A DNA stretch of 64,000 bases from a virus (IMGVR_UViG_3300025096_002712:32001-96000), one strand, 5' to 3'. Shown: positions 13,301 to 23,958, counted from the first letter of the stretch. Notes: generated by a model from the letters alone, not told the origin. Program-made: numbers and translations.

Positions 13301-14468
13301 TTCAGGTGATTTATTAGTTGGCGATAGTGGTGGTAATAAGATTCAATATGATGCATCTGTAGGTTCTATTAATATGAAGTCTCGTACTTTTAATTTAGAT
13401 GCAACAACAATAGTTGTGGATTCTGCTACAAATAATGGTAAAATGGCACTTGGTGGTACACCACCAACTTCTGTTGCATCAACAGTTACTGGAAGTTATC
13501 TTGATGGGTTTGGAAATGTTTTATTTAGACAGAGTGCAGATGATTATTTAAAATTTACCAATAGAAAGTTGGATATGCATGCTAAAAGCTTTTTCTTGGG
13601 TGGAGCATCACAATATGTAAGTGGAAGTGGTGGAAACTTAAAAATATATAGTACTGGAGATACAACACTTAGTGGAAGTTCTGTTACGGTAGAAACACCT
13701 AAGTTTTTCTTAGGTAAACAAGGTTCTCAATATGTAAGTGGAAGTAACAATCTTCTTGAGATAAGCTCATCTAAGTTTCATTTGAAAAATGATGGTAGTG
13801 TTACAATGACTGGTAATGTTACTGCTACTACTGGAGAAATTGGTGGTTATGTAATAAGTAGTACAGCTATGTCTGCTTCATCAGGTGGTGTTATTATTAC
13901 AACAAATGCAAATGCTGACATTTATCAAGGTGGTGGAGCCTATCTCGACAATGTACCATATATGTATGCAGAAAATGCTATATTTGGTGATTGGGATAAC
14001 TACTTTAGAGTTTTTGATGGTAGAATGTACGCAGGTAAAGGAATACAAACTCAGGGAATTTGGTTAGATGCAAATGATACGACCTTAAAATTAGGTGCTG
14101 ATAATCCAAAACTCATGACATACACATCTAAAACTGGAATATTCTTATCGGGATCTGGACATTTTAGAGTTGGTTCACCTACTGGTTCAAGGGTATCATT
14201 TGACACTACAAACCTTATAATAAGTACCAGTAATTTTGATGTTATAGGTGGTGCAGTAACCGCAAGCGCTGGTTCAATTGCAGACTGGACAATTACGACA
14301 TCAAGTTTGGAATCAAACACGGATGACCTTAGAGGACTTAAACTGAAACCAGGGGATAGAGTAGTTGGATACGGGCCCACGGCACATACAAAACAGACTA
14401 TATCTGGTTCGTTTAGTTTTGGAGTTTTACCAACACCTCCAGGTGAAGGTGGCGGAATAGCTTGGTAA
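4341..14468 (+). CDS. Giant Ser/Gly/Thr-rich repetitive virion structural protein (tail fibre/baseplate-associated), 3375 aa
   Basis: TTG start after GGAG; many G-x-I-G-G-W-x-I and ISGS/ISSS beta-repeats typical of phage fibres; GWRI..GEAEFEKVTIRGTL tail-protein segment; adjacent to S74 tail genes. Confidence 0.8.
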   Translation: MAVPKRINPLIGLKDLDVYVEDTEFDSAYFRVLECPSVLTQGKSSFLVGGSNFLKPGVDVKFEIVHDITNEVIYTEAVRGHLEGDLRRVSIEVYEDIIPGPATLYIVGELNPQTIDVEIPISWQNIYNVRWTKNVTINAAGINTQPIYFYKQPSINVSEIFRGYLVSDPPPTVTTYLTGSGDPRQGLSSIAPVQNVTSNGQQTTATYPEKDFADKANLAKIEENKPINKLTGKQGHIGKQGKLLQKSSPSPDDYLISVSSISPVSSSYIGHTFTINNPQVDSSKFQLDSYHTVPTVYTASVMKIIDETTFVPSSVFYINDTRTTPSTLVPAPLGNQYITASYQNLPNQNISANNFFSFADVELSDLRTFSGDVHKVKVYAKSEGSLGDFEKIYDSPIESSEILLDSSDLTLLGNMGYIQDLSRLNSYWEIYQGSDGNGGSGTLSYSSAYIVDSMKISGSNTQYDDVLRVQLKKDVSFVAGNTYTFRASLYGIKDSVQTINGTTINDGKFEIYVSGSAFNKDTTEGSQWGIKKLSVPDFPDGVGSYNFGTVEGDFIADNTGTGRIQFKVPSGQWYVSDVSVKASADTAFNPEYVRVVAPMPQLYARPDQVRFLVEFYDVNNNIADSVIFSDYFTFQGENVSIGGTDNILSGSMFISNATGSGIEMAGIGSGFIRSMGYKGFTSASSYPTSGSGFMMWSGSVLSDITSDYTQGGVGLELVGHSGSYFKFKTNPSELDIRTDKFFIGQESIQYMSGSDRNIEISSSLFWLDPKNDRLIIGADATINADLSVNNIFAPAGTNILTAKAAITSQGFAKFVSASIGAFKLNNDSLFSGPHNKPNFYISGSATGTDYFISSSNFQVRASGEVSASSLKLSGGDVGGLTVTEGQVAVGEILKLKDSGDITGSAVLLGDKSISQYLQYKNNSLVVRGDITVDSITTPATIGGAASTPANASASIDSSGNAIFKSGSIAGWKIIGNLLSGSNATLDADGAALYMSTKGPDTDSAAAFDQLRDEYYIDFTPADQGNTTNYYVKFGPNFMVDSDGILIASGAKFEGTITASAGSIGGASIESASLAYSPYWRISSSAATDDPVSFISSSQFKVSADGRITASAANIEGKITATSGKIANWDIIGDTLSSVNVSNKGILLDADASTPIIEIREDDNNRLQLYHTTSTNWGIIGRAGGTNLFRLGSTNQIAGWAISGSYISKAISGSVAHQDYTRVYMSSVNDNAKNITEGFSLYRKDEDTDNGATKIVRLGGLSDTTDLHANDDYGLQVIRQDTAGNYSNLLYIGSGSQTISGWNISTTGFTNTGIELSSTQASMSLGTNRAIILKGGTANPYISIGQSTIAYGEDGLLLAYIGTDPVVSFVGSGGYLKFNGSTIDIQTDTLKASGSNIILEAPRFFLGGQSQYVSGSNGNIEISSSNFHLTNAGDVTMAGTVTATAGEIGGFSISSDAIYSGTNFYLSGSSSGNNYFLSSSNFNIKASGDITGSQVLFSGGKVAGWDLSSTRITSPDGDMRLTSGNPKITIGTHTIGNGPGIQLGYDSGNTLTFFAGQSGTDYIKYTAGTGVDIKTAVFKLDTDNLDINSANGGSVALGTTPNTSISGTNKGIFMSGSGDFLLYGSATNYFKFDATATAIDIKSDTFDLATTTMILDSGVNSGKIALGNTPPTSVAYTANSGVYMDGTGDFLVRGDASNYIKMYSNTIDIKSEVFDLDAGTLLLSSATNGGKIALGGTPPTAYNSGVGVYLDGTGKALIGNSTGSMVQFDGATLIMSASKFYLGGSSQYVSGSNGNIEISSSNFYLDNSGNVTMAGTITATAGAIGGSTITSDALAYSPYWRISASNATSDPVSFISSSAFKVSAGGNITGSSVNFTGGKIAGFTIATTGITSTGIGVHPTGQTYAFTAGGSNEFNVKHSGQITGSNVKFTGGQIGGWEIDSDEIKSSVVTMSSATQRIEVSDGSGNTRVRIGEVDTTAASKYGLVIFDGSGTAYSDEIVHLGDARNQIASWSLSTSQISSNNLILDSSGIIQTSDFASGVKGWRITSANNGEAEFEKVTIRGTLATTVFEKESVSAVGGQLYVANSTIISQSTQLAASDTTMSVANVGGFTGSYNNNNGEVISIKKVTDTGFTTEYVLIQSASRDNPSSDKDLRGKLYVVRGYSGSTPADSSSLGDAAQSAQTYENGQVIVSTGRVNTGYIRLNANPNDTTTPYIDIVERTGSAIYDVSLKARLGDLSGLSSGLLYGNTSPGFGLFTENVFLQGAITATTGSFTGIVHIRTDASNQIKMGTNVNGNADGFSLNNNNFWYTTGDFRVGGASSNYFYISGSTIDIKTDTLVASGSSIQLKTPNFYFGDSSNYISGSGGKVAIVNTGTTTISGSAVNIQTPKFYFGNSQNFISGSNDNIKIQSYGTTTLSGSEVTIETPSFFFGKKSTQFVSGSNGYVEISSSKFHIQADGDVIANNITASNISMSGVVNASEGGIGGWVIGSNKIYTGTNETVSGYTSANGRLILSSSGAIHAKGFYVTKGGNASFSGSISSSEGNIAGWTIDADEIKSPGSTVVLDSDSSNGQIKLGSATALNTGDGIYMDGGGNFRAGDANGKRIQWDGTNITVSASDFFFGDNSNYISGSGGNLAIQNTGTTTISGSAVNIQTPKFFMGGSSQYVSGSNGNIEISSSNFHLSSSGDVTMAGTITATEGAIGGSTITSDALAYSPYWRISSSADTSDPVSFISSSAFKVSAGGNITGSSVLFDGGKVGGWTITENQLEANNIKINAASGYIEAGELSNVNDIDDTSVGFFANKDGEVLIKAGTSANKNYMQFKNGTLDINSDKVHISGSQITLKTPDFYFGDSSNYISGSGGNLAIVNTGTTTISGSAVTIETPRFFLGQKSTQYISGSLGNVEISSSKFHLQADGDVIANNITASNISMSGVVNSSAGTIGGWKILPGVLKSPGENVILSASNGGYISLGATPPITASSGVGIFLSGSGDLLVGDSGGNKIQYDASVGSINMKSRTFNLDATTIVVDSATNNGKMALGGTPPTSVASTVTGSYLDGFGNVLFRQSADDYLKFTNRKLDMHAKSFFLGGASQYVSGSGGNLKIYSTGDTTLSGSSVTVETPKFFLGKQGSQYVSGSNNLLEISSSKFHLKNDGSVTMTGNVTATTGEIGGYVISSTAMSASSGGVIITTNANADIYQGGGAYLDNVPYMYAENAIFGDWDNYFRVFDGRMYAGKGIQTQGIWLDANDTTLKLGADNPKLMTYTSKTGIFLSGSGHFRVGSPTGSRVSFDTTNLIISTSNFDVIGGAVTASAGSIADWTITTSSLESNTDDLRGLKLKPGDRVVGYGPTAHTKQTISGSFSFGVLPTPPGEGGGIAW
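9683..12580 (+). repeat. Near-identical ~267-nt direct repeat within the giant gene (9683-9949 and 12314-12580; partial copies near 7561 and 8570)
   Basis: Shared runs such as cttattcaccatattggagaatatca and tatcatcaagtgcatttaaagtatcggctggtggtaatataactggttc at a constant offset of 2631 nt. Confidence 0.9.
11391..13142 (+). repeat. Second repeat family in the giant gene (FYFGDSSNYISGSGG..NTGTTTISGSAV..TP near 11391, 12190 and 12879; QADGDVIANNITASNISMSGVVN near 11700 and 13075)
   Basis: Direct reading of protein and DNA, e.g. gcagatggtgatgtcatagcaaataatataac occurs twice. Confidence 0.85.
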
Positions 14469-14512: not shown

Positions 14513-15898
14513 ATGGCACAAATTTTACCATTTAAATTAAATATTGAAACCGTAAAAGGCCATACAATATCATATGCAACATCATCATTTGCAAAAACAG
14601 ATGAGGCCGGCCTTAGTGGATCTGTTATTTTAAGTAGAATAGATTCTATGCCTTCTATATCTTATAGTTCAAACGAAGTAATAGGAGGTGCAGCCTCACC
14701 GGCACACACTTTTTCACATGCAAATAATATTTGGATTTCTGCTTCAATGAATAGTACACATCACGGGTCAGGTTCAATTACATTTCATCATACAGATTCA
14801 TCGGATGTGAATGATAGATTAAAAAGATATAGATTTTTTGGTGATAAAGTATGTGCTGTTCTTGGATTACCTTCACGTCATTGGATATATCCAGTCAATT
14901 TTCAATTGTCCGATGCAACTGGTGTAGCAAATTATTTTGCTGGGGATGTATCTGCAGACTCTTTGAATGTTGCAAATAGTTTTAATATGTCACCGCTAGC
15001 CTCATCTACATCACATGTCAGACTTAATGCTACATCAGGAAGTAATGATGTGTTTTTCTTAGTTTCAAGTGGATCAGGTGCCTTTCAAAAAAATATGATA
15101 CAGATTGGGTATAATACAGATGATGATAAGTTTGTTATACGAGGTGGAACTGGAGAAAGTAGTCAAGGGGCTTATATTGATGATTTCATAAGTGTAACAT
15201 CTAATTATGTCGATTCGTGGTATTTCAGACAAAAAGCAGTTACTGATTCTTATATAAAGCTTTATAGTGATAGTTTCACCTATAAATCAGAAGGTGAGGA
15301 TTGTGTATATTTTGAGAAAATATCATCTAGCCCTCCAAGACGGAGATATAGGTTTGGTAATCCAGGCGTCAATGGTGTTCCTTCTGAAGTAGGCATTGAA
15401 TCAGATTTCATTTTTTCTGCATCAGGATCTGCTAATGGTATGAATTATACAATTTGTGCTAAAGGTGAAAAAGATGAGGGTTTTGTTGGAATACGAGAAC
15501 AGAGTCCGTCTTATCCACTTGAAGTTTCCGAGCACGTTTCAAATATATCTATATACGCAGAATATGATGTAGCAGCTTATTCGGATATTAGAGTTAAAAC
15601 GGATATAGAAACTATTACTGAACCATTAGATAAAGTATTAAAATTAAGAGGTGTTACTTTTAGAAGAACTGATGATAGTGCAAGTGATAGAGTAATGATG
15701 GGATTAATTGCACAAGAAACCGAACCTATTGTACCTGAAGTTGTTGTTACAAATGAAAATCCTGAAAGTGGTAAACGATATGGACATAAATCAATTTCAT
15801 ATGGAAACCTTGTAGGATTATTAATAGAGGCAGTAAAAGAACAACAAGAACAAATAGAAGAATTAAAACAACAAGTAAAGGAGATAAAAGATGGTTAA
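14513..15898 (+). CDS. Tail fibre/spike protein with C-terminal intramolecular chaperone (peptidase S74-like)
   Basis: YSDIRVKTDI cleavage motif, LRGVTF, GLIAQE, ISYGNLVGLLIEAVKEQ plus terminal coiled coil; AAGGAG SD. Confidence 0.88.
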   Translation: MAQILPFKLNIETVKGHTISYATSSFAKTDEAGLSGSVILSRIDSMPSISYSSNEVIGGAASPAHTFSHANNIWISASMNSTHHGSGSITFHHTDSSDVNDRLKRYRFFGDKVCAVLGLPSRHWIYPVNFQLSDATGVANYFAGDVSADSLNVANSFNMSPLASSTSHVRLNATSGSNDVFFLVSSGSGAFQKNMIQIGYNTDDDKFVIRGGTGESSQGAYIDDFISVTSNYVDSWYFRQKAVTDSYIKLYSDSFTYKSEGEDCVYFEKISSSPPRRRYRFGNPGVNGVPSEVGIESDFIFSASGSANGMNYTICAKGEKDEGFVGIREQSPSYPLEVSEHVSNISIYAEYDVAAYSDIRVKTDIETITEPLDKVLKLRGVTFRRTDDSASDRVMMGLIAQETEPIVPEVVVTNENPESGKRYGHKSISYGNLVGLLIEAVKEQQEQIEELKQQVKEIKDG

Positions 15899-16181
15899 AT
15901 GGGGTGGTAAAGAAAATACAATAATACCAAAATGTGTATGTCCAACAAGTGGAGTAATATATTTGTCTGAAATAAGACAAGAACTTGAATCAACGAGTAA
16001 TTCAAATGATTATGGTAATGGGCCATGGACTACTAATACGACAACATTAAAAAATTGTAATCTCTTCGTGTATGATAGTAGAAATACTAATTCAGATGAT
16101 TATCCAAATAGTTCAGAACCACATAAGATGACAGAGTGGTATAGTTATCATCATAACGCAACAAGTGGTATGGGGATGTAA
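15891..16181 (+). CDS. Small putative fibre-tip/cap protein, 96 aa
   Basis: PTSGVIYLSEIRQE...KMTEWYSY pattern of small proteins that follow S74 fibres; overlaps the fibre stop. Confidence 0.55.
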   Translation: MVKWGGKENTIIPKCVCPTSGVIYLSEIRQELESTSNSNDYGNGPWTTNTTTLKNCNLFVYDSRNTNSDDYPNSSEPHKMTEWYSYHHNATSGMGM

Positions 16182-16594
16182 TGAATAAATTATTTCATAA
16201 TAATAAAATTGAAGTTAGGGATTCATCTATACATGGACGAGGAGTTTTTGCAAAAGAAGATATTAAAAGTGGTGAAATCTTAGAAGAATGTCATTATATT
16301 GTGGTAGATGATGGTAATTCACACGATATGCCACTTTATAAATGGCGTCGTTTAACAGATAGTAATATACAAATTGATGAACGGAAATTTCAATGGCCTA
16401 AAGGTGAAGATTTTGAAAAATATACAATACCATTTGGATTTGGTACTATATACAATAGTGTATTAAACGAAGAAGAAAGAAGTGTTAATTGGGAAAATGA
16501 TTTAGATAGAGATATTTATAGATTTTTTACAGTTAAAGATGTAAAAAAAGATGAAGAACTTTTATTATATTATCATAATGGCAAATTTAAATAA
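16181..16594 (+). CDS. SET-domain protein (putative lysine methyltransferase)
   Basis: SSIHGRGVFAKEDIKSGE, GTIYNS (NHS-like) and KDVKKDEELLLYY (ELxxDY-like); TAATG coupling. Confidence 0.8.
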   Translation: MNKLFHNNKIEVRDSSIHGRGVFAKEDIKSGEILEECHYIVVDDGNSHDMPLYKWRRLTDSNIQIDERKFQWPKGEDFEKYTIPFGFGTIYNSVLNEEERSVNWENDLDRDIYRFFTVKDVKKDEELLLYYHNGKFK

Positions 16595-16609: not shown

Positions 16610-17053
16610 ATGGCTTTTACAGATAGAGGAGCATATTTAGATACATCGGAAAGGGTTCACATAGGTGGAACTGGTGATCCTTCTGTATCGTTGAAAGTAA
16701 CAGGTGAAGTATATGTTACAAACAATATTACTGCCTATTATTCATCAGACATAAGTTTGAAAGATAATATCAGACCGATAGAAAGTGCCATTTTTAAGGT
16801 CAAACAAATCAGAGGTGTTACCTTTGATTGGAATAAAAAATCAGGAAAAATTGAACAAGAAAAAGGTCATGATGTAGGTTTAATTGCACAAGAAGTTGAA
16901 AAGGTTTTACCAGAAGTTATTCAGATTCGTGAAGATGGAATCAAGGCAATTGCATATGAAAAGGTTGTACCACTATTAGTAGAAGCCATTAAAGAACAAC
17001 AAACTCTTATTGAGGATTTATCAAATAGAATAAAGACATTAGAGGAAAGATAA
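16610..17053 (+). CDS. Near stand-alone S74 intramolecular chaperone protein with a ~45-aa N-terminal part
   Basis: YSSDISLKDNI, IRGVTFDW, VGLIAQEVEKVLPE, AYEKVVPLLVEAIKEQ. Confidence 0.88.
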   Translation: MAFTDRGAYLDTSERVHIGGTGDPSVSLKVTGEVYVTNNITAYYSSDISLKDNIRPIESAIFKVKQIRGVTFDWNKKSGKIEQEKGHDVGLIAQEVEKVLPEVIQIREDGIKAIAYEKVVPLLVEAIKEQQTLIEDLSNRIKTLEER

Positions 17054-18135
17054 TGGCACTACAAAGTGGATTTAAAATATTAGGTCTAAATATTATAGAT
17101 AGTGGTGGTGGTTATGGAACATCAAAAACTGGTAGTTTGAGAGCTAGAGATCCAGGTCAAGGAAATGGATTTTTAGGAAATTATTATTCTACGGGTGGTA
17201 AAATAGTTTCTGCTTCAATATCAAATAAAGGTAAAAGTTATTCAAGTGGCTCTTGGGTACAACCGAACACGGCGATTAAAGGTGCAGTTACTTCTATTTC
17301 AATTGGAACATATGCAGATCCAGCTACAGGATCTGGTTCAATAATATTACCAAACATTGGTATGGATATATCTATGAGTATATCTGATATCAATAGAGAA
17401 AAGGGAATAGCAGCCACTACTGCAAATTCAGACATTCACGATTTATATGAAGATTTTTCATCAATAGCAGGTTCAGTTCATAGTGGTTTAGAGGGAAAAC
17501 CAAATTTCGATTGGTGGCAAGGAGGTCCAGTTTCACAGTCAGCATCCCATCCTATAAGATTTGATGAATTTTATAATGCAAATTATTCAATGTATGGTGG
17601 TGCAGGTTGTCTTGCAATAGGAACACCGATAACAATGGCAGATGGTTCTACTAAAAATGTAGAGGATGTAAATGTAGGGGATATGGTAAGGGCAGCAACA
17701 GTAAAAGGTATGCCATTAGATTTTGATGATGAAGATACTTGGTCTATTTGGACTGGTGTACCACACGGAAATCCACCTGGTTCAGTATGGGCTACCGCAT
17801 ATTATGATATACAAGAGATAAATCGAGTTACACCAGCAAGTGCGTCAGTTCAAGAGATTTATTTTGATTTTTATGATAATTATTATCTGATAAATGGTTC
17901 TTTAAAGGCAACATATGAACATCCATTTTTTGTATTAAGAGATGGTAGTTATCATTTTAAAACAACAGCCAGTTTGTTACCTGGTGATAAGTTATTCAAA
18001 GATAATAACGAGTTTGAAGAAATAACATCACTTGAATTTGTACAAGAATCAATAGAAACAGTTAATCTTAATGTAGAAAATTTAGATGTTTATTTCGGTG
18101 GTGGTTATTTAATGCACAATGTTCATTCTAAATAG
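17053..18135 (+). CDS. Putative virion protein with C-terminal Hint (bacterial intein-like) domain at 17608-18120
   Basis: CLAIGTPITMADG block A, ATYEHPF block B, terminal YLMHN followed by VHSK*. Confidence 0.85.
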   Translation: MALQSGFKILGLNIIDSGGGYGTSKTGSLRARDPGQGNGFLGNYYSTGGKIVSASISNKGKSYSSGSWVQPNTAIKGAVTSISIGTYADPATGSGSIILPNIGMDISMSISDINREKGIAATTANSDIHDLYEDFSSIAGSVHSGLEGKPNFDWWQGGPVSQSASHPIRFDEFYNANYSMYGGAGCLAIGTPITMADGSTKNVEDVNVGDMVRAATVKGMPLDFDDEDTWSIWTGVPHGNPPGSVWATAYYDIQEINRVTPASASVQEIYFDFYDNYYLINGSLKATYEHPFFVLRDGSYHFKTTASLLPGDKLFKDNNEFEEITSLEFVQESIETVNLNVENLDVYFGGGYLMHNVHSK

Positions 18136-18143
18136 GAGTTATA

Positions 18144-19154
18144 ATGAGTTATGATGTTTATTACTCTACTGGAGGTGGTTCAGTAGTTTATGGTGGAGCA
18201 GATATTTGGGTTAATAATTGGTTACGAGAAGTAGCCCCTAAATTAAATCATCCATCTAAATTACTAATTCATCGCCGTAGACCTGAAAAAGTAAAGGTAG
18301 AATTTGATTCACCAATAGAAGTTGTATGGCAAGGTGATCACCCAAAAGATTTCGAAGAAATAGCCTCGAAGGCTCGTAAGATTCATGTATTACACGGATA
18401 TTATACACCACATAGGATAATAGAAAGTAATAAAGATAAATTAGAATCAGTATGTATTCATGTATCAGTAGATTTATCGTTAAAGGCAGGATTTCAATTA
18501 GGATTACCGAAGTTAATGCATTATGCAGCAAACGCATCTTGGGAAAAGAGAGTTTCAAAATGGGCAAAGAAGGTAGTGTGGATTGGGTTAGATAAGATTC
18601 CATTACATGATGAAGTAGGTATAATTGATTTACCAAATTATTACGAGTTTACACAAAATAAAAAAGTATGTATGAGTAATAAAGTTGGATTTGCAGCAAG
18701 ATGTGAAACTCGTAAATCACCACATTTCTTAGATGGTATTGATAGTTATTCTTTTACCGATCCAGAAGATTGGAGATGGTGGAAATTAAATCTTGGGTTA
18801 GAGTTTAAAAATACTCGGTTATATCAATTTAAAAATAAAAATATTCATTGGTTTTTTAATAGAGAGGATTGGGGAATATCACATAGCTGTCATCTACATG
18901 AACCATTCGGTTATTCTATATTTCAAGCATTAGATTATGGAAAGTTACCTATATTACAAAAAGATTGGCTGTCAAACTATGATTATCCATTCAGAGCTTT
19001 CAATAAGAAAGAGTTTGATGAACAATTACATAATATATCAGAGTTATCAGAGAAAGAAAGACAAGATTATTTGGATGGACTGAGAGATTATTGTAGGAAG
19101 TATGATAATAAGGATGAATGGGTAGAGAAATATTTGGAAATATACAACGCATGA
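18144..19154 (+). CDS. GT-B fold (GT4-like) glycosyltransferase
   Basis: N-term YGGADIWV; VGFAARCETRK; HEPFGYSIFQALDYGKLPI resembling the E-x7-E motif with the second E replaced by Q. Confidence 0.65.
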   Translation: MSYDVYYSTGGGSVVYGGADIWVNNWLREVAPKLNHPSKLLIHRRRPEKVKVEFDSPIEVVWQGDHPKDFEEIASKARKIHVLHGYYTPHRIIESNKDKLESVCIHVSVDLSLKAGFQLGLPKLMHYAANASWEKRVSKWAKKVVWIGLDKIPLHDEVGIIDLPNYYEFTQNKKVCMSNKVGFAARCETRKSPHFLDGIDSYSFTDPEDWRWWKLNLGLEFKNTRLYQFKNKNIHWFFNREDWGISHSCHLHEPFGYSIFQALDYGKLPILQKDWLSNYDYPFRAFNKKEFDEQLHNISELSEKERQDYLDGLRDYCRKYDNKDEWVEKYLEIYNA

Positions 19155-19180
19155 TATTTATTAATAACACACAACACGGC

Positions 19181-19224
19181 ACGCGTATTAGACGAGAATC
19201 GTCTTTTTCATGCGTATTTTTTTT
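19181..19224 (+). terminator. Hairpin plus T8 (terminator or attenuator) immediately upstream of the second Hint gene
   Basis: ACGCGT..AGACGA-gaa-TCGTCT..ATGCGT nested stems, then A and TTTTTTTT, then GGAG SD. Confidence 0.6.
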
Positions 19225-19235
19225 GGAGAACTTTT

Positions 19236-20732
19236 TTGGCAACACCAACAGATGGAACTAAACTATCATTAGGAAAACTCGGTAGGGCAACCGCCGTAGG
19301 TAATTCCGATTATACTTCTAAGACAAGTCTTAATGATGCTGGCAGAGATAGTGGAACTGATAAAACTAAGGTAAGTGATTTTTACATTGGTTCAGTAGAT
19401 AATACTTTAGATGGTTATCCATATGTGGATGAACAAACAAATGAAACCTATACAATGACTTTCACTAATGAGAATAGTTTATTTCAATCTCGTATAGGTG
19501 GACGACACCAAAACTTTACTTGGAGTGGAAGTGCTTTATTTGCCCCACAATCAAATCAAGATTATACTGCAGTTTTTGCAGCAGGAACAATAACAGACCA
19601 CGCAACACCGAGTGTAAGTGAAAGTAATGTAGTTGTGGACTATGATTTTAATAATTGGGCAGATTCAAACACATTAGTTAGTTGGTCAGGTAGTGGGGCG
19701 AGTGTAATATCAAAGCATACTCTTGTAAGTCAATCACCATCTGGTTCTAATAATTTTGCAGTAAAGTTTAATACACAAGATAGTCATATAAGTCAGTCTT
19801 TAACAGTTAAAGGAAACTCTGTTTATAGAATTAGAGCAATGGCCTCATCTTCTAATCTTGATGAGGGAAATATAAATATGGAAATTAGTGGTGCTTATAC
19901 TCAACAGACATTTAGAGGTATAGCAGGTAACGGTGAATGGAAAGAAACAAGAAATGATTTTTACACGAGTGGTTCTGCAGGAGTAACTCAAACCCTAAAA
20001 CTTACTTTCACTGCAATATCAGCTTCTTCAGACCATAAACCACTATTAGATACGGTATTTTTTGAAAGATGGGAAGGTGCACATATGAGTGATACGAGTG
20101 TAGTTGTATCTGGTAAATATCATGATGCAGGACAGAGTGATGGGTTTAATGACCACGCTACACGATATAATACTGATATTACTAAAACTGTTGAAATACA
20201 AGATACATATGGTGGACTTGCAATAGCCTGTTTCTTACCAGGAACTTTAATATTAATGTCAGATGAAACTACAAAACCCATTGAAGATATTAATGTGGGT
20301 GATGAAGTAATGTCATTAGATTTACCTGGACTTCCAGATGAAGATTTAGGATATTTAGAGTGGAAGGCTTATACAATGAGACCAATGGATAATTTAGATG
20401 AAGTGATAGAAAGGTATAAGAAAACTGCAAATGTAGAACATTTATTTTATGATTATATGGATGGTTATTATAGTATTAATAATGGATACTTAAAAATTAC
20501 GAGAGAACACGATCTTTTTATATATGATAATGGTATGTGGAGATGGATGACACCAAATGAAATAAGTGGTGGTATGAAATTATTTAGTTATGAGGGCGAA
20601 ATAATAAATATAGATTCGATAGAATGGGTAGAAGGTGAAGTTGAAGTTGTAAATTTTGATGTAGAACCATTGGATGTATATTTTGCAGGTGGAGTATTAG
20701 TTCACAACAAAGGAGCAAGTTCTGAACCATAA
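19236..20732 (+). CDS. Putative virion protein with CBM-like beta-sandwich and C-terminal Hint domain at 20229-20708
   Basis: CFLPGTLILMSD block A, ITREH block B, VLVHN then KGASSEP*; ISQSLTVKGNSVYRIR..WKE..F..LLDTV CBM4/9-like pattern; TTG start after GGAG. Confidence 0.85.
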   Translation: MATPTDGTKLSLGKLGRATAVGNSDYTSKTSLNDAGRDSGTDKTKVSDFYIGSVDNTLDGYPYVDEQTNETYTMTFTNENSLFQSRIGGRHQNFTWSGSALFAPQSNQDYTAVFAAGTITDHATPSVSESNVVVDYDFNNWADSNTLVSWSGSGASVISKHTLVSQSPSGSNNFAVKFNTQDSHISQSLTVKGNSVYRIRAMASSSNLDEGNINMEISGAYTQQTFRGIAGNGEWKETRNDFYTSGSAGVTQTLKLTFTAISASSDHKPLLDTVFFERWEGAHMSDTSVVVSGKYHDAGQSDGFNDHATRYNTDITKTVEIQDTYGGLAIACFLPGTLILMSDETTKPIEDINVGDEVMSLDLPGLPDEDLGYLEWKAYTMRPMDNLDEVIERYKKTANVEHLFYDYMDGYYSINNGYLKITREHDLFIYDNGMWRWMTPNEISGGMKLFSYEGEIINIDSIEWVEGEVEVVNFDVEPLDVYFAGGVLVHNKGASSEP

Positions 20733-20789: not shown

Positions 20790-21500
20790 ATGTCAATACT
20801 AAATCGTGGATATATATACGATTCAATAACAAGAAATGAAGATTCAGGTTCAGTATCATATAGATGGACTCATGGTGCTAATGACACTTATATGGGCACT
20901 GGTATATTTTATTATGCCATTCCATATTTTCTAAAGGCACGAGTATGTGTTTGTCTTGGTAGTGGTGGTGGATATGTGCCACGATTGATGGTTGATTGTG
21001 TTCATGAATTAAATGAAGTTGATATGTATGGTGAGAATAAATATGGTGAAGTCTATGTTGTTGATGCGACAAATGGTTTTAATGGTGAAGTTGATTGGTC
21101 TGATGAGGATAGTTTTTTACGAGAAAAGTTTAATCCAAAATTTTTAAACACCACTACGGAAGATGCATTCTATAACTTTTTTGTTAAACGGGATATCAAA
21201 ATAGATTATTTACATATAGATGCAGACCATACTTATGAGGGTTGTAAACTTGACTTTGATTTATATTCTACGATAATGAACGAAAATGGAATTATATCAA
21301 TACACGATACAGATAGAAAATATTGGGAAAACTTTGGAACTTATGATGGAGAGGAACATGATTCCTGTACGGGTCCAAGTGAAGTTATAAATGAAATCAG
21401 TAATAAATGGGAAGTATTTAATTTGTTTGATTATAAAGAAAAAAATGAAGTTTTACCTTCTTCTGGTTTAACTATATTGAGAAGAAAAGATGAGATATAG
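20790..21500 (+). CDS. Class I SAM-dependent methyltransferase (Methyltransf_24-like)
   Basis: CLGSGGGY, IDYLHIDADHTYEG, GIISIHDT. Confidence 0.85.
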   Translation: MSILNRGYIYDSITRNEDSGSVSYRWTHGANDTYMGTGIFYYAIPYFLKARVCVCLGSGGGYVPRLMVDCVHELNEVDMYGENKYGEVYVVDATNGFNGEVDWSDEDSFLREKFNPKFLNTTTEDAFYNFFVKRDIKIDYLHIDADHTYEGCKLDFDLYSTIMNENGIISIHDTDRKYWENFGTYDGEEHDSCTGPSEVINEISNKWEVFNLFDYKEKNEVLPSSGLTILRRKDEI

Positions 21501-23958
21501 ACCAACAAAGTTTACCATAGAAGAACAACAGGATATACGAGAACGATATAGTGAATGGTTAAAACCAGAAAATATTATTTGGGTAGAAAAGGAATATAAA
21601 GATAATATACAATATTATGAATACCAAGAAATAGAAAAGTTTATTGATAAACATTTTAATTTTGCAAAAAGTTATGCAGAAAAAATGTGGGTATTAGAAA
21701 AAATAAAGGATTGGAATTCTCATACTTCTCAATATATTGATAGTAGAATAGGTAATTATAAAATAAATGATTTTAATGATGAAACACTTCAAAGAATTAT
21801 ATTGGAAGAAATAGAACACGGTGGTGCAGAAGGAAAGGGATTTTTAAGTGATTTTATAGAAAATAGAATTAAAGATATGGAACTTTCTTCATTTCAAGAA
21901 GAACTAAGTGTTAGACAAAAGTTGTGTGATTTAGAGTTTCATACAACACCTTATGTTGAAAAAAGAATAGGAGATTATGAAATAGAAGATTTAGATGATG
22001 AATTAGTAAAACGAATAAAATTAGAAGAATGTGAAAAATTAAATAGCCCATTTATATTAAAACAAATAAAAAAACATATGGGAAAAATACATCCTGATGA
22101 TGAACTCTCAAAGAGACAGATATTAAACGAGTGTGAGAAACATACTAATGATTATGTTGCAAAAAGAATAAAAGAATTTCAACCACTAACTTTAAAAACT
22201 GAAAATCACGAAGATTTATATGAACAGTTACAATGGAGAGAAGATTTAGAGCAAATAATTGATCATAGATCTGAGTTTATAGATCAAAATATAAAATTTT
22301 ATAAAGGTCGTGGTGTAGAAATAACAACACCCACACAGGAACTCGAACACAGATTAAAACTTGAAGAATGTGAAAAGTTTAATACAGACTATATTTCAAG
22401 AGAAACAGCAAGATTAAAGGATGAATATTTAATTCGTGATCCACAAGAAGAACTTAAACATAGAATGAATCTTGCATTTTTCGAAGATAATGTAAAGGAT
22501 AAAGAAAAAATAGCAAGTAAAGAAACATTTTGGGATATGATTTCAGTTCATGGATTAGAAAATTTAAATCTACTCAAGGAAGAATTAAATAATGTAGGTA
22601 ATGGTTTTTGTTTAGCAAAATGGAATCAAGTTAGTATTCTTTTACAGACAGGTCAAACTCATAGTTGTCACCACCCAAGACCTCATGTAGTTCCTAAAAG
22701 AGAATTGGAAAACAATCCATCTGCACTTCACAATACATATTTCAAAAAGATGCAAAGAAAGACGATGTTAAAAGGTGGTCGTCCAAAGGAATGTGATTAT
22801 TGTTGGAATGTAGAAGATGCTAATCCAGGAGCATTTAGTGATAGGATTATGAAAAGTGGTGAGGCCTGGGCATTTCCATACTTCGATAAGATTAAAAGGT
22901 CAGATCCAGAAGAAAATACTAATCCATCTTATGTAGAAGTTAGTTTTTCTAATCAATGTAATATGAGTTGTGGTTATTGTGATGTCAAAAGTAGTTCCAA
23001 TTGGCAACACGAAATAGCAACAAAAGGACATTATCCTACGAGTGGAATGTATAACAATACTGAATGGATGGAAAGGGAAGGAATAGTTCCGATACCACAT
23101 ACTAAACCCAATCCATACAGAGATGCTTTTTGGAAATGGTGGCCAGACTTATTCCCAACACTTCATACTTTTAGAATAACTGGAGGTGAACCACTTTTAC
23201 ATAAAGATACATTTAAAGTTTTAGATTATCTAATAGAAAATCCAAAAGTAAATCCTATGTTAGAAATGTCTGTTAATAGTAATTTATGTGCACCACAACA
23301 TTTATTTGAAGAGTTTGTGGATAAAGTTAAGTATATTACAGATAGAGACTTAGTTTGGAATTTTGCACTATTTACAAGTATTGAGGCGGACGGGAAACAC
23401 GCAGAATATATGAGAGATGGAATGGACGCTGATAGATTTTGGAATAACTTAGATTATTTTTTAACCAAATGTCAAAAACCAGAGGCAACTATAATGGCAA
23501 CTTATAATCTTACAAGTGTTTCAACTTATCACGAAGTGATTAAGAAGGTATTTGAATTAAAAAAGAAACATTATAATGGCCAAAGATACAGACATTATGG
23601 TATAATACTGGACACGGCATATCTTAGACATCCAGAGTTCTTACAAGTTCGTTTATTGTCTACACATTGGATTGATAAAATACGAGAAGATGTAAAATTA
23701 ATGGAGAGTTTAGCGGAAGAAAAATATACTCATATTTATGGACATGGACATGCAGGATTTTATGATTTTGAAAGAGAAAAATTAAGACGAGTATTGGATT
23801 GGGTAGATGCCCCACTCGATGATGTAAAATGGTTAATGAAAATGAGGAAAGATTTTGTATTATTTATCGATGAGTTTGATATAAGACGAGGAAAAAACTT
23901 CTTAGAAACTTTTCCAGAGATGGAAGATTTTTACAATTCTTGTAAGAAGTTGATATAA
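21490..23958 (+). CDS. Radical SAM enzyme with an extra Cys-rich (twitch/SPASM-like) segment and an N-terminal helical repeat region
   Basis: CNMSCGYC, ITGGEPLL, upstream CLAKW..SCHHP..CDYCW; first ~350 aa are repeats. Confidence 0.85.
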   Translation: MRYRPTKFTIEEQQDIRERYSEWLKPENIIWVEKEYKDNIQYYEYQEIEKFIDKHFNFAKSYAEKMWVLEKIKDWNSHTSQYIDSRIGNYKINDFNDETLQRIILEEIEHGGAEGKGFLSDFIENRIKDMELSSFQEELSVRQKLCDLEFHTTPYVEKRIGDYEIEDLDDELVKRIKLEECEKLNSPFILKQIKKHMGKIHPDDELSKRQILNECEKHTNDYVAKRIKEFQPLTLKTENHEDLYEQLQWREDLEQIIDHRSEFIDQNIKFYKGRGVEITTPTQELEHRLKLEECEKFNTDYISRETARLKDEYLIRDPQEELKHRMNLAFFEDNVKDKEKIASKETFWDMISVHGLENLNLLKEELNNVGNGFCLAKWNQVSILLQTGQTHSCHHPRPHVVPKRELENNPSALHNTYFKKMQRKTMLKGGRPKECDYCWNVEDANPGAFSDRIMKSGEAWAFPYFDKIKRSDPEENTNPSYVEVSFSNQCNMSCGYCDVKSSSNWQHEIATKGHYPTSGMYNNTEWMEREGIVPIPHTKPNPYRDAFWKWWPDLFPTLHTFRITGGEPLLHKDTFKVLDYLIENPKVNPMLEMSVNSNLCAPQHLFEEFVDKVKYITDRDLVWNFALFTSIEADGKHAEYMRDGMDADRFWNNLDYFLTKCQKPEATIMATYNLTSVSTYHEVIKKVFELKKKHYNGQRYRHYGIILDTAYLRHPEFLQVRLLSTHWIDKIREDVKLMESLAEEKYTHIYGHGHAGFYDFEREKLRRVLDWVDAPLDDVKWLMKMRKDFVLFIDEFDIRRGKNFLETFPEMEDFYNSCKKLI

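What the first reader, a model, noticed from the sequence alone, without database searches (positions are those of the whole stretch)
17053..20732. Two tail-region proteins end in non-splicing Hint domains preceded by a shared YGG linker and flank a glycosyltransferase
Seen: Hint domains at 17608-18120 and 20229-20708 keep Cys1, TxxH and terminal HN, but the +1 residues are Val and Lys (not C/S/T) and only 4 and 7 residues follow. There is no endonuclease insert. Both are preceded by YGG (MYGGAG|C, TYGGLAIA|C) and share an acidic G(M/L)P..D..W insertion and a DVYFxGG block F variant. Established: Hedgehog and BIL Hint domains form a thioester at Cys1 that is hydrolysed or captured by an external nucleophile. 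Inference: these domains release or covalently ligate the N-terminal virion domain to a partner such as another virion protein, a sugar or a lipid, adding a second autoprocessing chemistry beside the S74 chaperones.
Basis: partly seen in the sequence, partly recalled or inferred. Interest (0 to 1): 0.8.

Follow-up and report, generated by a model that had tools for sequence, protein, structure and literature searches.

The report
Self-processing Hint caps on phage proteins
Two neighbouring fibre-region proteins of an uncultured marine phage each end in an intact intein-like (Hint) self-processing domain of the bacterial-intein-like type; it belongs to a very large, unstudied family that caps phage appendage proteins and carries a conserved lysine just after its cut site, so it probably removes itself, and may re-attach the protein's end to that lysine, by thioester chemistry not yet described for phage particles.

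Summary
Proteins A (17053-18135) and B (19236-20732) end in paralogous 171- and 160-residue Hint domains. Both have Cys1, TxxH, a terminal His-Asn, no endonuclease and no +1 nucleophile, followed by tails of 4 and 7 residues.

By sequence and by fold they are closest to bacterial intein-like (BIL) domains: Tetrahymena BIL2 and C. thermocellum BIL.

They are not mobile inteins. All listed orthologues (about 240) keep the Hint, and it diverges at the same rate as its flanks. The same module ends unrelated proteins in thousands of clusters.

- 73 of 74 short tails contain lysine.
- B's tail KGASSEP is a conserved C-flank motif, also present where a lectin domain follows the Hint.
- A Hint-less paralogue family ends exactly at the YGG junction.

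Most likely these are self-excising type-A-BIL-like caps: a thioester at Cys1 plus Asn cyclisation. The outcome would be hydrolysis or acyl transfer to the tail amine. Ligation to an outside partner is unsupported.

The "glycosyltransferase" call has only weak support.

This scan has already met the same glycine-Hint-lysine module on other DNA. I found no paper that describes it.

The parts
17053..18135 (+). Protein A (360 aa): small beta domain (about residues 7-103), low-confidence stalk (120-183), Hint, 4-residue tail
   Evidence: ORF. AF2 model m3cef33f63d34. 167 homologues, most full length.
17593..17607 (+). A N-junction linker Y181-G-G-A-G185, immediately before Cys186
   Evidence: xYGGxG|C in 119 of 121 family rows. 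Y181, G182, G183, G185 and C186 are invariant in alignment A2.
17608..18120 (+). Hint domain A (Cys186 to Asn356; block B T287-Y-E-H290 at 17911-17922)
   Evidence: VIA-align: BIL2 6y75 Z 19.4; 2lwy 17.4; DnaB mini-intein 17.3; Hedgehog 1at0 16.3. Profile versus PDB: 2lwy E = 1.8e-5.
18121..18132 (+). A tail V-H-S-K; Val+1 and Lys+4 are invariant in the family
   Evidence: HN|V[HYN]xK in 118 of 118 complete homologues. V357 and K360 are invariant.
18144..19154 (+). 336-aa gene between A and B; glycosyltransferase-like by language-model neighbours only
   Evidence: No Pfam, PHROG or NCBIfam hit. ESM Atlas neighbours. Adjacent to B in 4 of 4 related contigs.
19236..20732 (+). Protein B (498 aa): anchor module, inserted CBM-like jelly roll, stalk, Hint, 7-residue tail
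   Evidence: ORF. 656 homologues; the top 120 are full length at 61-100% identity. AF2 model m3c8b188823c5.
19617..20120 (+). B residues about 128-295: carbohydrate-binding-module-like beta sandwich, inserted into the anchor module
   Evidence: Foldseek hits to CBM16, CBM4 and CBM51. Pfam DUF642 E = 1.7e-5, below cut-off. Absent from the 162-aa paralogue, which aligns to B 2-115 and 125-153.
20208..20228 (+). B N-junction Y325-G-G-L-A-I-A331, before Cys332
   Evidence: YGG[LVI][AS]IA|C in 116 of 120 homologues. Y325, G327, A331 and C332 are invariant.
20229..20708 (+). Hint domain B (Cys332 to Asn491; block B T422-R-E-H425 at 20499-20510)
   Evidence: Foldseek: BIL2 6y75 E = 2.9e-9, TM 0.77; 2lwy TM 0.82. 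phmmer over 1.84 billion representatives: 3198 clusters at E <= 1e-3.
20709..20729 (+). B tail K-G-A-S-S-E-P, the conserved C-flank motif K-G-x-x-x-(E/Q/D)-P
   Evidence: HN|KG.S.[ED]P in 120 of 120 homologues. The same motif (KGTTTQP) precedes a LamG domain in 26 of 26 P0216-type loci.
14513..15898 (+). Context: 461-aa fibre-type protein with a C-terminal S74 intramolecular chaperone
   Evidence: Pfam PF13884 E = 7.6e-15; 35 PHROG families matched, most annotated tail fibre.
16610..17053 (+). Context: 147-aa S74-chaperone protein directly upstream of A, overlapping A's start
   Evidence: Pfam PF13884 E = 8.6e-17. The S74-A order is conserved in L006, L007 and L009.

Best explanation
A and B each carry a type-A bacterial-intein-like (BIL-A-like) Hint domain that acts as a self-excising C-terminal cap.

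Inferred mechanism, following established Hint chemistry:
1. Cys186 (A) or Cys332 (B), helped by the block-B Thr and His, converts the Gly185|Cys186 or Ala331|Cys332 peptide bond into a thioester.
2. The terminal Asn (356 or 491), helped by the penultimate His, cyclises and cuts the Asn|Val357 or Asn|Lys492 bond.
3. The acyl group (the N-terminal module) goes either to water or to an amine of the short lysine-bearing tail. Water gives a mature protein ending ...YGGAG or ...YGGLAIA. Transfer to the tail would be BIL-A-type aminolysis through the freed alpha-amine, or a BIL2-type lysine isopeptide.

Either way the Hint leaves the mature protein. I put hydrolytic release slightly ahead of tail transfer, roughly 45:35 within this explanation.

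The Gly-rich YGG stretch is the end of a conserved stalk shared by A, B and their Hint-less paralogues. The biological role is most likely a removable maturation or assembly cap, analogous in logic to the neighbouring S74 chaperones.

Shown here: the fold, the catalytic residues, their conservation, the fixed C-terminal position and the conserved flanks. Inferred: that the reactions occur, and their products.
For: Hint fold, closest to BIL domains:
- B: Foldseek BIL2 E = 2.9e-9, 2lwy TM 0.82.
- A: VIA-align BIL2 Z 19.4, 2lwy Z 17.4.
- The best PDB sequence hit for both is 2lwy.

All type-A BIL hallmarks are present: Cys1, TxxH, terminal HN, no +1 nucleophile, no endonuclease (definition in PMC4031507).

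The catalytic columns are the most conserved residue columns across 99 segments from clusters at 50% identity or less. They are invariant within the A and B families.

The module is fixed and vertically inherited:
- Every listed orthologue keeps it.
- In 36 of 38 complete P0216-type loci the Hint is intact, with divergence equal to its flanks.

The position is modular. 74 of 150 representatives have one Hint 1-18 residues from the C-terminus, behind N-terminal parts that range up to 1541 aa, after a Gly-rich linker (3.1 Gly in 8 residues against 0.73 expected).

The tail is part of the module:
- Lys is in 73 of 74 tails, against 41 +/- 4 (maximum 58) for real C-termini of this phage.
- K+4 is invariant in the A family.
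- The KGxxx(E/Q)P flank is conserved with or without a following domain.

Hint-less paralogues (34 clusters) mostly end 4-7 residues after the conserved Tyr (...NFNYGDAG-stop). That is at the predicted cut site.

Precedents: type A BILs cleave and, less often, ligate through the freed amine (PMC4031507). BIL2 forms a Lys isopeptide (PMC8616854).
Against: No experiment exists for any member of this family. I found no proteomic data for the cultured-phage members.

Pfam Hint-type hits for A and B are all below the gathering thresholds.

Plain hydrolytic release does not explain why His-Asn and the lysine tail are so strictly kept. Tail transfer does not explain why Hint-less paralogues end without any tail-like extension.

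The models have moderate confidence (mean pLDDT 74 and 71).

Virion location is inferred from context only.

The 74 representatives are not phylogenetically independent, although 42 of the 43 tails that do not start with Lys still contain one.
Confidence: 0.7

Rival explanations
1. Thioester capture by an outside partner. The Cys1 thioester is attacked by a lysine or N-terminus of another particle protein, or by a sugar or lipid. This would weld the N-terminal module covalently onto a partner, as Hedgehog does with cholesterol and BIL2 does with target lysines.
For: BIL2, the top structural match for both proteins, conjugates its N-extein to lysines of other proteins (PMC8616854). The genes sit at the edge of a sugar-modification island, next to a GT-like gene whose adjacency to B is conserved. 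B carries a CBM-like domain.
Against: There is no ligand-recognition region after the Hint, only 4-7 residues. The strict conservation of the terminal His-Asn and the tail is unnecessary for outside capture; Hedgehog and type B BILs lack it. Hint-less paralogues with an unactivated free C-terminus at the same position are common and coexist with A and B. No candidate acceptor was identified.
Confidence: 0.12
2. Selfish hitch-hiker. These are ordinary endonuclease-less mini-inteins or BILs that invaded near the C-terminus of their host genes. They persist only because they must splice out; the tail is simply the host protein's native end.
For: Mini-inteins of similar size give nearly as good structural matches (gp41-1, DnaB; Z 16-17). 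Related Hints are genuine inteins in Vibrio phage helicases. Hint-less relatives of B's anchor module exist. Two P0216-type copies have decayed Hints (L048 and L055).
Against: No +1 Cys, Ser or Thr. No Hint-minus orthologue among about 240 listed A and B homologues or in 38 P0216-type loci. The same module sits 1-18 residues from the end of unrelated proteins of many lengths, which fits domain shuffling and not homing into conserved sites. The flanks (Gly-rich linker, Lys or KG..P tail) travel with the Hint across different host proteins. The Hint-less family is a co-resident paralogue without the tail.
Confidence: 0.08
3. Retained structural domain. The Hint is not processed and stays on the mature protein as a globular distal knob, for example a binding or spacer domain. 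The catalytic residues would be kept for folding reasons.
For: Tandem arrays of up to about 13 Hint units exist in the same sequence family, which suggests Hints can serve as building blocks. The acidic insertion specific to the single-Hint subfamily could be a binding surface.
Against: The five catalytic positions are the most conserved residue columns of the domain, which is hard to explain by folding alone. Hint-less paralogues stop exactly at the junction. Every experimentally studied Hint with this residue set is active (PMC4031507).
Confidence: 0.07

Closest known systems
Type A bacterial intein-like (BIL) domains (Amitai 2003; Dassa 2004; C. thermocellum BIL, PDB 2LWY)
   Same: Hint fold of about 140-170 aa without an endonuclease. 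Cys1, TxxH and terminal His-Asn are present, with no +1 nucleophile. They sit in variable, non-housekeeping proteins. 2LWY is the best PDB sequence hit for both proteins, with TM 0.82 and Z 17.4. Known chemistry: thioester plus Asn cyclisation, with cleavage dominant and some ligation through the freed amine (PMC4031507).
   Different: Here the domain is terminal, with only 1-18 residues after it, on phage appendage-region proteins. It has a near-universal lysine in the tail, a Gly-rich or YGG linker and an acidic insertion between blocks A and B. Pfam PT-HINT scores are below threshold. No activity has been tested.
BIL2 of the Tetrahymena thermophila BUBL1 polyubiquitin-like locus (PDB 6Y75, 6TMM)
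   Same: It is the top structural match for both A and B (E = 2.9e-9; Z 19.4, rmsd 1.7 A, 26% identity). It uses a lysine amine as acyl acceptor and makes an isopeptide bond (PMC8616854). This is a precedent for the conserved tail lysine.
   Different: BIL2 lies between two ubiquitin-like domains in a eukaryote and conjugates a Ubl. Here the N-terminal parts are phage stalk and CBM-like modules, and the C-side is a 4-7-residue tail. Zn dependence and lysine attack are untested here.
Pretoxin HINT (Pfam PF07591) of polymorphic toxins
   Same: A BIL-A-like Hint used as a built-in processing peptidase in filamentous or fibre-like extracellular proteins (PMC3482391). It is the Pfam model that covers most of both domains.
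   Different: PT-HINT sits just before a C-terminal toxin domain that it releases. Here nothing (A, B) or a lectin-like domain (P0216 type) follows. Scores of 19.6 and 23.5 bits are under the 27.7-bit cut-off.
Hedgehog C-terminal autoprocessing (Hog) domain
   Same: A C-terminal Hint whose Cys1 thioester releases and modifies the N-terminal functional domain. Z = 16.3 to 1AT0.
   Different: Hog has a sterol-recognition region after the Hint and no terminal His-Asn or Asn cyclisation. The phage domains keep His-Asn at 97-98% and have only a short tail.
Peptidase S74 intramolecular chaperone of phage fibres and spikes
   Same: A C-terminal, self-removing domain on phage appendage proteins. Two examples lie immediately upstream in the same gene run.
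   Different: Unrelated fold and chemistry: a Ser-Lys dyad protease acting after trimerisation, against Cys thioester plus Asn cyclisation.
Canonical class 1 mini-inteins (gp41-1, Ssp/Npu DnaB)
   Same: Same fold and blocks A, B, F and G (Z 16-17).
   Different: Inteins need Cys, Ser or Thr at +1, interrupt conserved sites of conserved enzymes and show presence/absence among alleles. None of this holds here.

Membership tests
HINT superfamily | Hint (Hedgehog/intein) horseshoe beta fold | tested here: met
   B: Foldseek E = 2.9e-9 to 6y75, TM 0.77-0.82 to BIL domains. A: VIA-align Z 19.4 to 14 against about 50 Hint structures.
Type A BIL | N-terminal Cys or Ser nucleophile and block B TxxH | tested here: met
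   Cys186 and TYEH in A; Cys332 and TREH in B. Invariant within the families. Cys 93%, Thr 89%, His 95% in 99 segments.
Type A BIL | C-terminal His-Asn, as in inteins | tested here: met
   H355-N356 and H490-N491. HN in 72 of 74 single-Hint representatives.
Type A BIL | No nucleophilic residue at +1 | tested here: met
   +1 is Val (A) and Lys (B). In the family: K 31, A 10, V 6, F 6, I 5, L 4; only S 4 and T 2 of 74.
Type A BIL | Located in variable, non-conserved proteins rather than at conserved sites of housekeeping enzymes | tested here: met
   N-terminal parts range up to 1541 aa and are unrelated to one another. Hosts are fibre-region proteins.
Type A BIL | Autocatalytic N- and C-terminal cleavage (with minor splicing) shown biochemically | not testable with these tools
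   No experiment on any member was found.
Pfam PT-HINT (PF07591) | Score at or above the curated gathering cut-off (27.7 bits) | tested here: not met
   19.6 bits (A) and 23.5 bits (B). Some homologues carry a precomputed PF07591 hit.
Pfam PT-HINT (PF07591) | Sits immediately before a C-terminal toxin domain | tested here: not met
   Only 4 and 7 residues follow the Hint. Relatives have a LamG lectin domain, not a toxin.
Canonical (class 1) intein | Cys, Ser or Thr at +1 for the branched intermediate | tested here: not met
   Val357 and Lys492. Invariant V+1 or K+1 in the families.
Canonical (class 1) intein | Sporadic presence: intein-free alleles with the flanks joined at the same site | tested here: not met
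   None among 120 + 118 listed orthologues or in 38 complete P0216-type loci. The Hint-less 162-aa family is a co-resident paralogue that ends at the junction without the tail.
Hedgehog Hog domain | Sterol-recognition region after the Hint; no terminal Asn cyclisation | tested here: not met
   Tails of 4 and 7 residues; His-Asn kept.
BUBL-type BIL (Tetrahymena BIL2) | N-extein is a ubiquitin-like domain | not tested
   A's N-terminal domain is all-beta in the model, and B's is an anchor module plus a CBM-like domain. I made no dedicated fold search of the N-terminal domains.
Glycosyltransferase (middle gene 18144-19154) | Significant match to a GT family profile or GT-A/GT-B fold | tested here: inconclusive
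   No Pfam, PHROG or NCBIfam hit. ESM Atlas neighbours are auto-named CAP10-type GT, and a PF11440 AGT cluster scores 0.97.

The most novel reading that the evidence does not exclude
The module Gly-rich linker - Hint - lysine tail is a self-contained, ATP-free protein ligase. The Cys1 thioester is resolved by the tail lysine (or the amine freed by Asn cyclisation), giving an isopeptide- or peptide-linked product. In relatives where a lectin domain follows the Hint, this would join the anchor and the receptor-binding domain through a non-canonical, nucleophile-free splice. That would be a third natural route to amide bonds in virus particles, beside HK97-type chainmail and sortase- or pilin-like isopeptides. 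It would also be a new family of cysteine-light splicing tools.
Probability: 0.3. Interest if true: 0.85.

Novelty: new variant of a known kind. Interest (0 to 1): 0.62.

Why it matters
Self-removing C-terminal domains of phage fibres are known only as S74 serine-lysine chaperones. A second, chemically different system based on a Hint thioester seems to be very widespread: 3198 clusters at 50% identity match this one domain at E <= 0.001. It occurs from marine phages to cultured Erwinia and Dickeya jumbo phages, yet I could find no paper on it.

The family offers a natural test of how Hint domains work without a +1 nucleophile. It could show what a conserved lysine next to the C-terminal scissile bond does. 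It could also show whether phages use thioester chemistry to time assembly, unmask a C-terminal stalk or ligate distal domains.

Short, endonuclease-free, nucleophile-independent Hint domains are also of practical interest for protein ligation and tag removal.

For annotation, the family is missed by the curated Pfam thresholds, so these proteins are usually labelled hypothetical or mislabelled as intein-containing.

Tried and rejected
- DNA search of the 3.7-kb region against 50,697 phage records: no match.
- Protein search of B in the phage records found only the Hint part, so there is no cultured close relative of A or B.
- Literature: eight searches on Hint, BIL, tail fibre and the jumbo phages. 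I read the phiCbK, CBB, PaBG, jumbo-phage overview and polymorphic-toxin papers. They describe only true inteins (terminase, RNR) or PT-HINT before toxins, never a terminal Hint on phage appendage proteins. Subscription papers on Y3 and AD1 are not in the library.
- Search for Hint-minus fusions of anchor and lectin domain in 41 P0216-type loci: none. Only two frameshifted copies turned up.
- T4 gp23 capsid family in the 106-kb contig: none, and the control genomes did not ring either, so the phage type stays unassigned.
- Model coordinates are not exposed, so the Lys-to-Cys1 distance was not measured.
- I considered YGG as a ubiquitin-like Gly-Gly tag and rejected it. Its distance to Cys1 differs between the two proteins (the Tyr is 5 residues before Cys1 in A and 7 in B). 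It belongs to a stalk motif (GFNDH.T.YN...Y-G-G) that is also present in the Hint-less paralogues.
- I rejected 'DVYFxGG' as a special block F variant: it is this family's normal block F/G.
- No profile-profile comparison against separate BIL-A, BIL-B, Hog and intein models was possible, because those models are not available in the script box.

Full report
**What is there**

The window is bases 32001-96000 of a 106-kb viral contig estimated at about 45% complete, with about 31% G+C. On the + strand the gene run is:
- primase and an SbcCD-like fusion;
- a 3375-aa serine/glycine-rich giant protein;
- a 461-aa protein and a 147-aa protein, both carrying Peptidase_S74 intramolecular chaperone domains (E = 7.6e-15 and 8.6e-17) and matching many tail-fibre PHROGs, with a SET-domain protein between them;
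- protein A (17053-18135, 360 aa);
- a 336-aa gene (18144-19154);
- protein B (19236-20732, 498 aa);
- a methyltransferase, an 822-aa radical-SAM-like protein, a GT2-like protein and further sugar-modifying genes.

**Checking the observation**

- A: ...MYGGAG|C186 ... T287-Y-E-H290 ... H355-N356|VHSK.
- B: ...TYGGLAIA|C332 ... T422-R-E-H425 ... H490-N491|KGASSEP.

The two C-terminal regions are paralogous: BLASTP E = 3e-27, 32% identity over A residues 135-356. The alignment covers about 50 residues of stalk before the Hint as well as the Hint itself.

Pfam gives several Hint-type hits (Hom_end_hint, PT-HINT, Hint, Hint_2, Intein_splicing), but all are below the curated cut-offs. That explains why such proteins go unannotated.

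The fold is not in doubt.
- B's AlphaFold model (mean pLDDT 74) matches Tetrahymena BIL2 (6Y75, E = 2.9e-9, TM 0.77) and the C. thermocellum BIL domain (2LWY, TM 0.82) ahead of mini-inteins.
- A's model (mean pLDDT 71; the Hint itself 84-97) gives BIL2 Z 19.4 (rmsd 1.7 A over 139 residues), 2LWY 17.4, DnaB mini-inteins about 17 and Hedgehog 16.3.
- By sequence, 2LWY is the best solved-structure hit for both proteins (E = 0.005 and 0.011 singly; 1.8e-5 with the A-family profile).

The domains are 171 and 160 aa, with no room for an endonuclease.

The acidic [GS][LM]P..acid..W insertion is real and marks the subfamily of single C-terminal Hints: 24 of 56 against 2 of 30 in tandem-array Hints. 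Their stretch between blocks A and B is about 16 residues longer.

The 'DVYFxGG' block is simply this family's block F/G (58 of 99 segments).

The middle gene has no profile hit in Pfam, PHROGs or NCBIfam. Only language-model neighbours, auto-named CAP10-type glycosyltransferase, and a T4 alpha-glucosyltransferase-like cluster suggest a glycosyltransferase. That part of the title is a lead, not a finding.

**Not a mobile intein**

B has 656 homologues. The 120 best (61-100% identical, 490-534 aa) all cover the full length, and all read ...HN|KG.S.(E/D)P; 116 of them read YGG(L/V/I)(A/S)IA|C.

A has 167 homologues. In 119 of 121 rows the junction is xYGGxG|C. All 118 complete ones end HN|V-(H/Y/N)-x-K.

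The order S74 protein - A - GT-like - B - methyltransferase - radical-SAM-like protein recurs in three related contigs. A fourth has GT-like - B - methyltransferase - radical-SAM-like protein behind sugar enzymes, without A nearby.

In a sister clade (P0216 type) the Hint lies between the same kind of anchor module and a LamG lectin domain (PF13385, E = 2.5e-15). Of 38 complete loci, 36 have an intact Hint whose divergence equals that of its flanks (Hint 53-61% identity where the flanks are 41-68%). Two have frameshifting deletions inside the Hint. None is a clean Hint-less fusion. This is vertical inheritance of an integral domain.

**A large family with its own signature**

A full scan of 1.84 billion cluster representatives with B's Hint found 3198 clusters at E <= 1e-3 and 521 at E <= 1e-10.

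Of the best 150:
- 74 have one Hint 1-18 residues from the C-terminus, behind N-terminal parts that range up to 1541 aa;
- 15 have a longer C-terminal extension;
- 59 have several Hints, often head to tail (...LVHNKGG|CFLAGT...).

In the 74 single-Hint proteins:
- Cys1 is present in 60 of 60 where the start is aligned.
- His-Asn is present in 72 of 74.
- The +1 residue is K 31, A 10, V 6, F 6, I 5, L 4, with Ser or Thr only 6 times.
- The eight residues before Cys1 hold 3.1 Gly on average, against 0.73 expected.

73 of the 74 tails contain lysine. Composition predicts 17. Real C-termini of this phage's own genes, sampled at the same lengths, give 41 +/- 4, with a maximum of 58 in 2000 draws. 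Of the 43 tails that do not begin with Lys, 42 still contain one.

Across 99 aligned Hint segments the most conserved residue columns are the terminal Asn (98%), the penultimate His (97%), the block-B His (95%), Cys1 (93%) and the block-B Thr (89%). So both junction chemistries are under selection, including the C-terminal one, although almost nothing follows it.

Cultured examples show the same anatomy in tail gene modules:
- Erwinia phage Yoloswag gp103: ...GVQSG|C ... VLVHN|TDIVAQAEKT.
- Erwinia phage Y3 gp110, whose GenBank note says 'contains intein domain'.
- Phage NCTB, a 1304-aa protein: ...SGGGGGG|C ... VLVHN|APVDQKH.

**What this locus adds**

1. The YGG belongs to a stalk motif (G-F-N-D-H-x-T-x-Y-N ... 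Y-G-G). A, B, P0131, P0159 and P0173 share it; P0217 has a looser form.

2. One related phage (L009) encodes, besides A and B, a 162-aa paralogue of B's anchor plus stalk. It lacks both the CBM-like insert and the Hint. It ends ...NFNYGDAG-stop and aligns to B residues 2-115 and 125-153. This is a family of 34 clusters. Most end 4-7 residues after the conserved Tyr (...YGDAG...YTGGS...YDPVGGP). That is where A (Y-G-G-A-G|C) and B (Y-G-G-L-A-I-A|C) would be cut. A free C-terminus at this position is therefore a natural, functional state of the module.

3. B's tail KGASSEP is not arbitrary. It is the conserved C-flank motif K-G-x-x-x-(E/Q/D)-P. In P0216-type proteins this motif (KGTTTQP, 26 of 26) leads into the lectin domain, while the N-flank VDVYNTIN(Q/E)PDF|C is equally fixed.

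4. In a tree of the Hint segments, short-tail and long-extension forms are interleaved within the 'KG' clade. The A-type (VHxK) clade lies next to the Erwinia phage Hints, and the tandem-array Hints mostly fall outside the single-Hint clades. The tree is FastTree, midpoint-rooted, and I did not inspect support values. Downstream domains come and go; the Hint with its flanks stays.

5. B's residues about 128-295 form a CBM-like jelly roll (CBM16, CBM4, CBM51 matches; DUF642 below cut-off).

**How it most likely works**

By established knowledge, type A BILs have a terminal His-Asn and lack the +1 nucleophile. They form the N-terminal thioester and cleave at the C-terminus by Asn cyclisation. 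They give mainly cleavage products, with some ligation when the freed amine attacks the thioester (PMC4031507). They sit in variable regions of non-conserved proteins (PMC7765530). BIL2 resolves its thioester with a lysine to make an isopeptide (PMC8616854).

A and B meet every sequence and structure criterion of type A BILs that I could test.

I therefore read them as self-excising caps: a thioester at Gly185|Cys186 and Ala331|Cys332, Asn cyclisation at Asn356|Val and Asn491|Lys, and loss of the Hint from the mature protein (confidence 0.7). What happens to the acyl group is open.
- The Hint-less paralogues favour simple release of a free ...YGGxx carboxyl.
- The strict retention of His-Asn and of a lysine-bearing, motif-like tail favours transfer to an amine of the tail.

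I rate these about 45:35.

A selfish mini-intein (0.08) and an unprocessed structural knob (0.07) fit the distribution and conservation data poorly.

**Limits**

Nothing has been tested biochemically for any member. Virion location is inferred from context. The representatives are not independent samples. Subscription papers on the cultured phages could not be read.

**Relation to earlier notes of this scan**

The scan has met the same glycine-Hint-lysine module at the ends of phage tail proteins on other DNA: 90 notes in at least 82 genomes. Earlier follow-ups named type A BIL as the closest known family. My tests here agree. They add the Hint-less paralogue family, the conserved C-flank motif shared with lectin-bearing relatives, and BIL2 as the top structural match.

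Noticed in passing
proteins P0126, P0128, P0133, P0136, P0167 (hits): Head-to-tail arrays of about 4-13 Hint domains joined by 2-4 residues (...LVHNKGG|CFLAGT...), each unit keeping Cys1 and His-Asn. 59 of the 150 best representatives hold more than one Hint. One is from a Nanoarchaeota MAG, and some carry a Tim44-like domain after the array. It is unclear what a chain of self-cleaving domains would be for.
   Followed up: partly
L018-L058 (P0216-type loci), e.g. L018:3001-4743: A clade of phage proteins with anchor module - Hint - LamG/ConA-like lectin domain. The junction flanks are nearly invariant (VDVYNTIN[QE]PDF|C ... SHN|KGTTTQP.IP), although the proteins are only 42-68% identical. This is a good test case for nucleophile-free splicing against cleavage.
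   Followed up: partly
L048:2450-2754 and L055:3496-3892: Two P0216-type copies have internal deletions with a frame change inside the Hint. They are either decaying genes or assembly errors.
   Followed up: no
L009:2715-3203: A 162-aa Hint-less, CBM-less paralogue of protein B's anchor and stalk, ending ...NFNYGDAG. It represents a family of 34 clusters. In this phage it sits between the two S74-chaperone genes.
   Followed up: yes
window 21490-23958: The N-terminal half of the 822-aa radical-SAM-like protein (Pfam Radical_SAM just below cut-off) contains about four degenerate repeats of roughly 50 residues (H-T/S-x-x-Y-I/V-x-x-R-I-x-x-Y/F-x-I-x-D...). The gene follows B and the methyltransferase in all four related contigs.
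   Followed up: no
window 16181-16594: A SET-domain protein (PF00856, E = 1.9e-8) is encoded between the two S74-chaperone fibre-type genes.
   Followed up: no
window 4341-14468: The 3375-aa Ser/Gly-rich repetitive giant protein has no PHROG match at E <= 1e-5. Pieces of it match the upstream parts of three of the four related contigs at 25-55% identity.
   Followed up: no
window 18144-19154: The 336-aa gene between A and B is 76-81% identical in related contigs. It is more conserved than the N-terminal part of either Hint protein, and it stays next to B even where A is absent (L008).
   Followed up: partly
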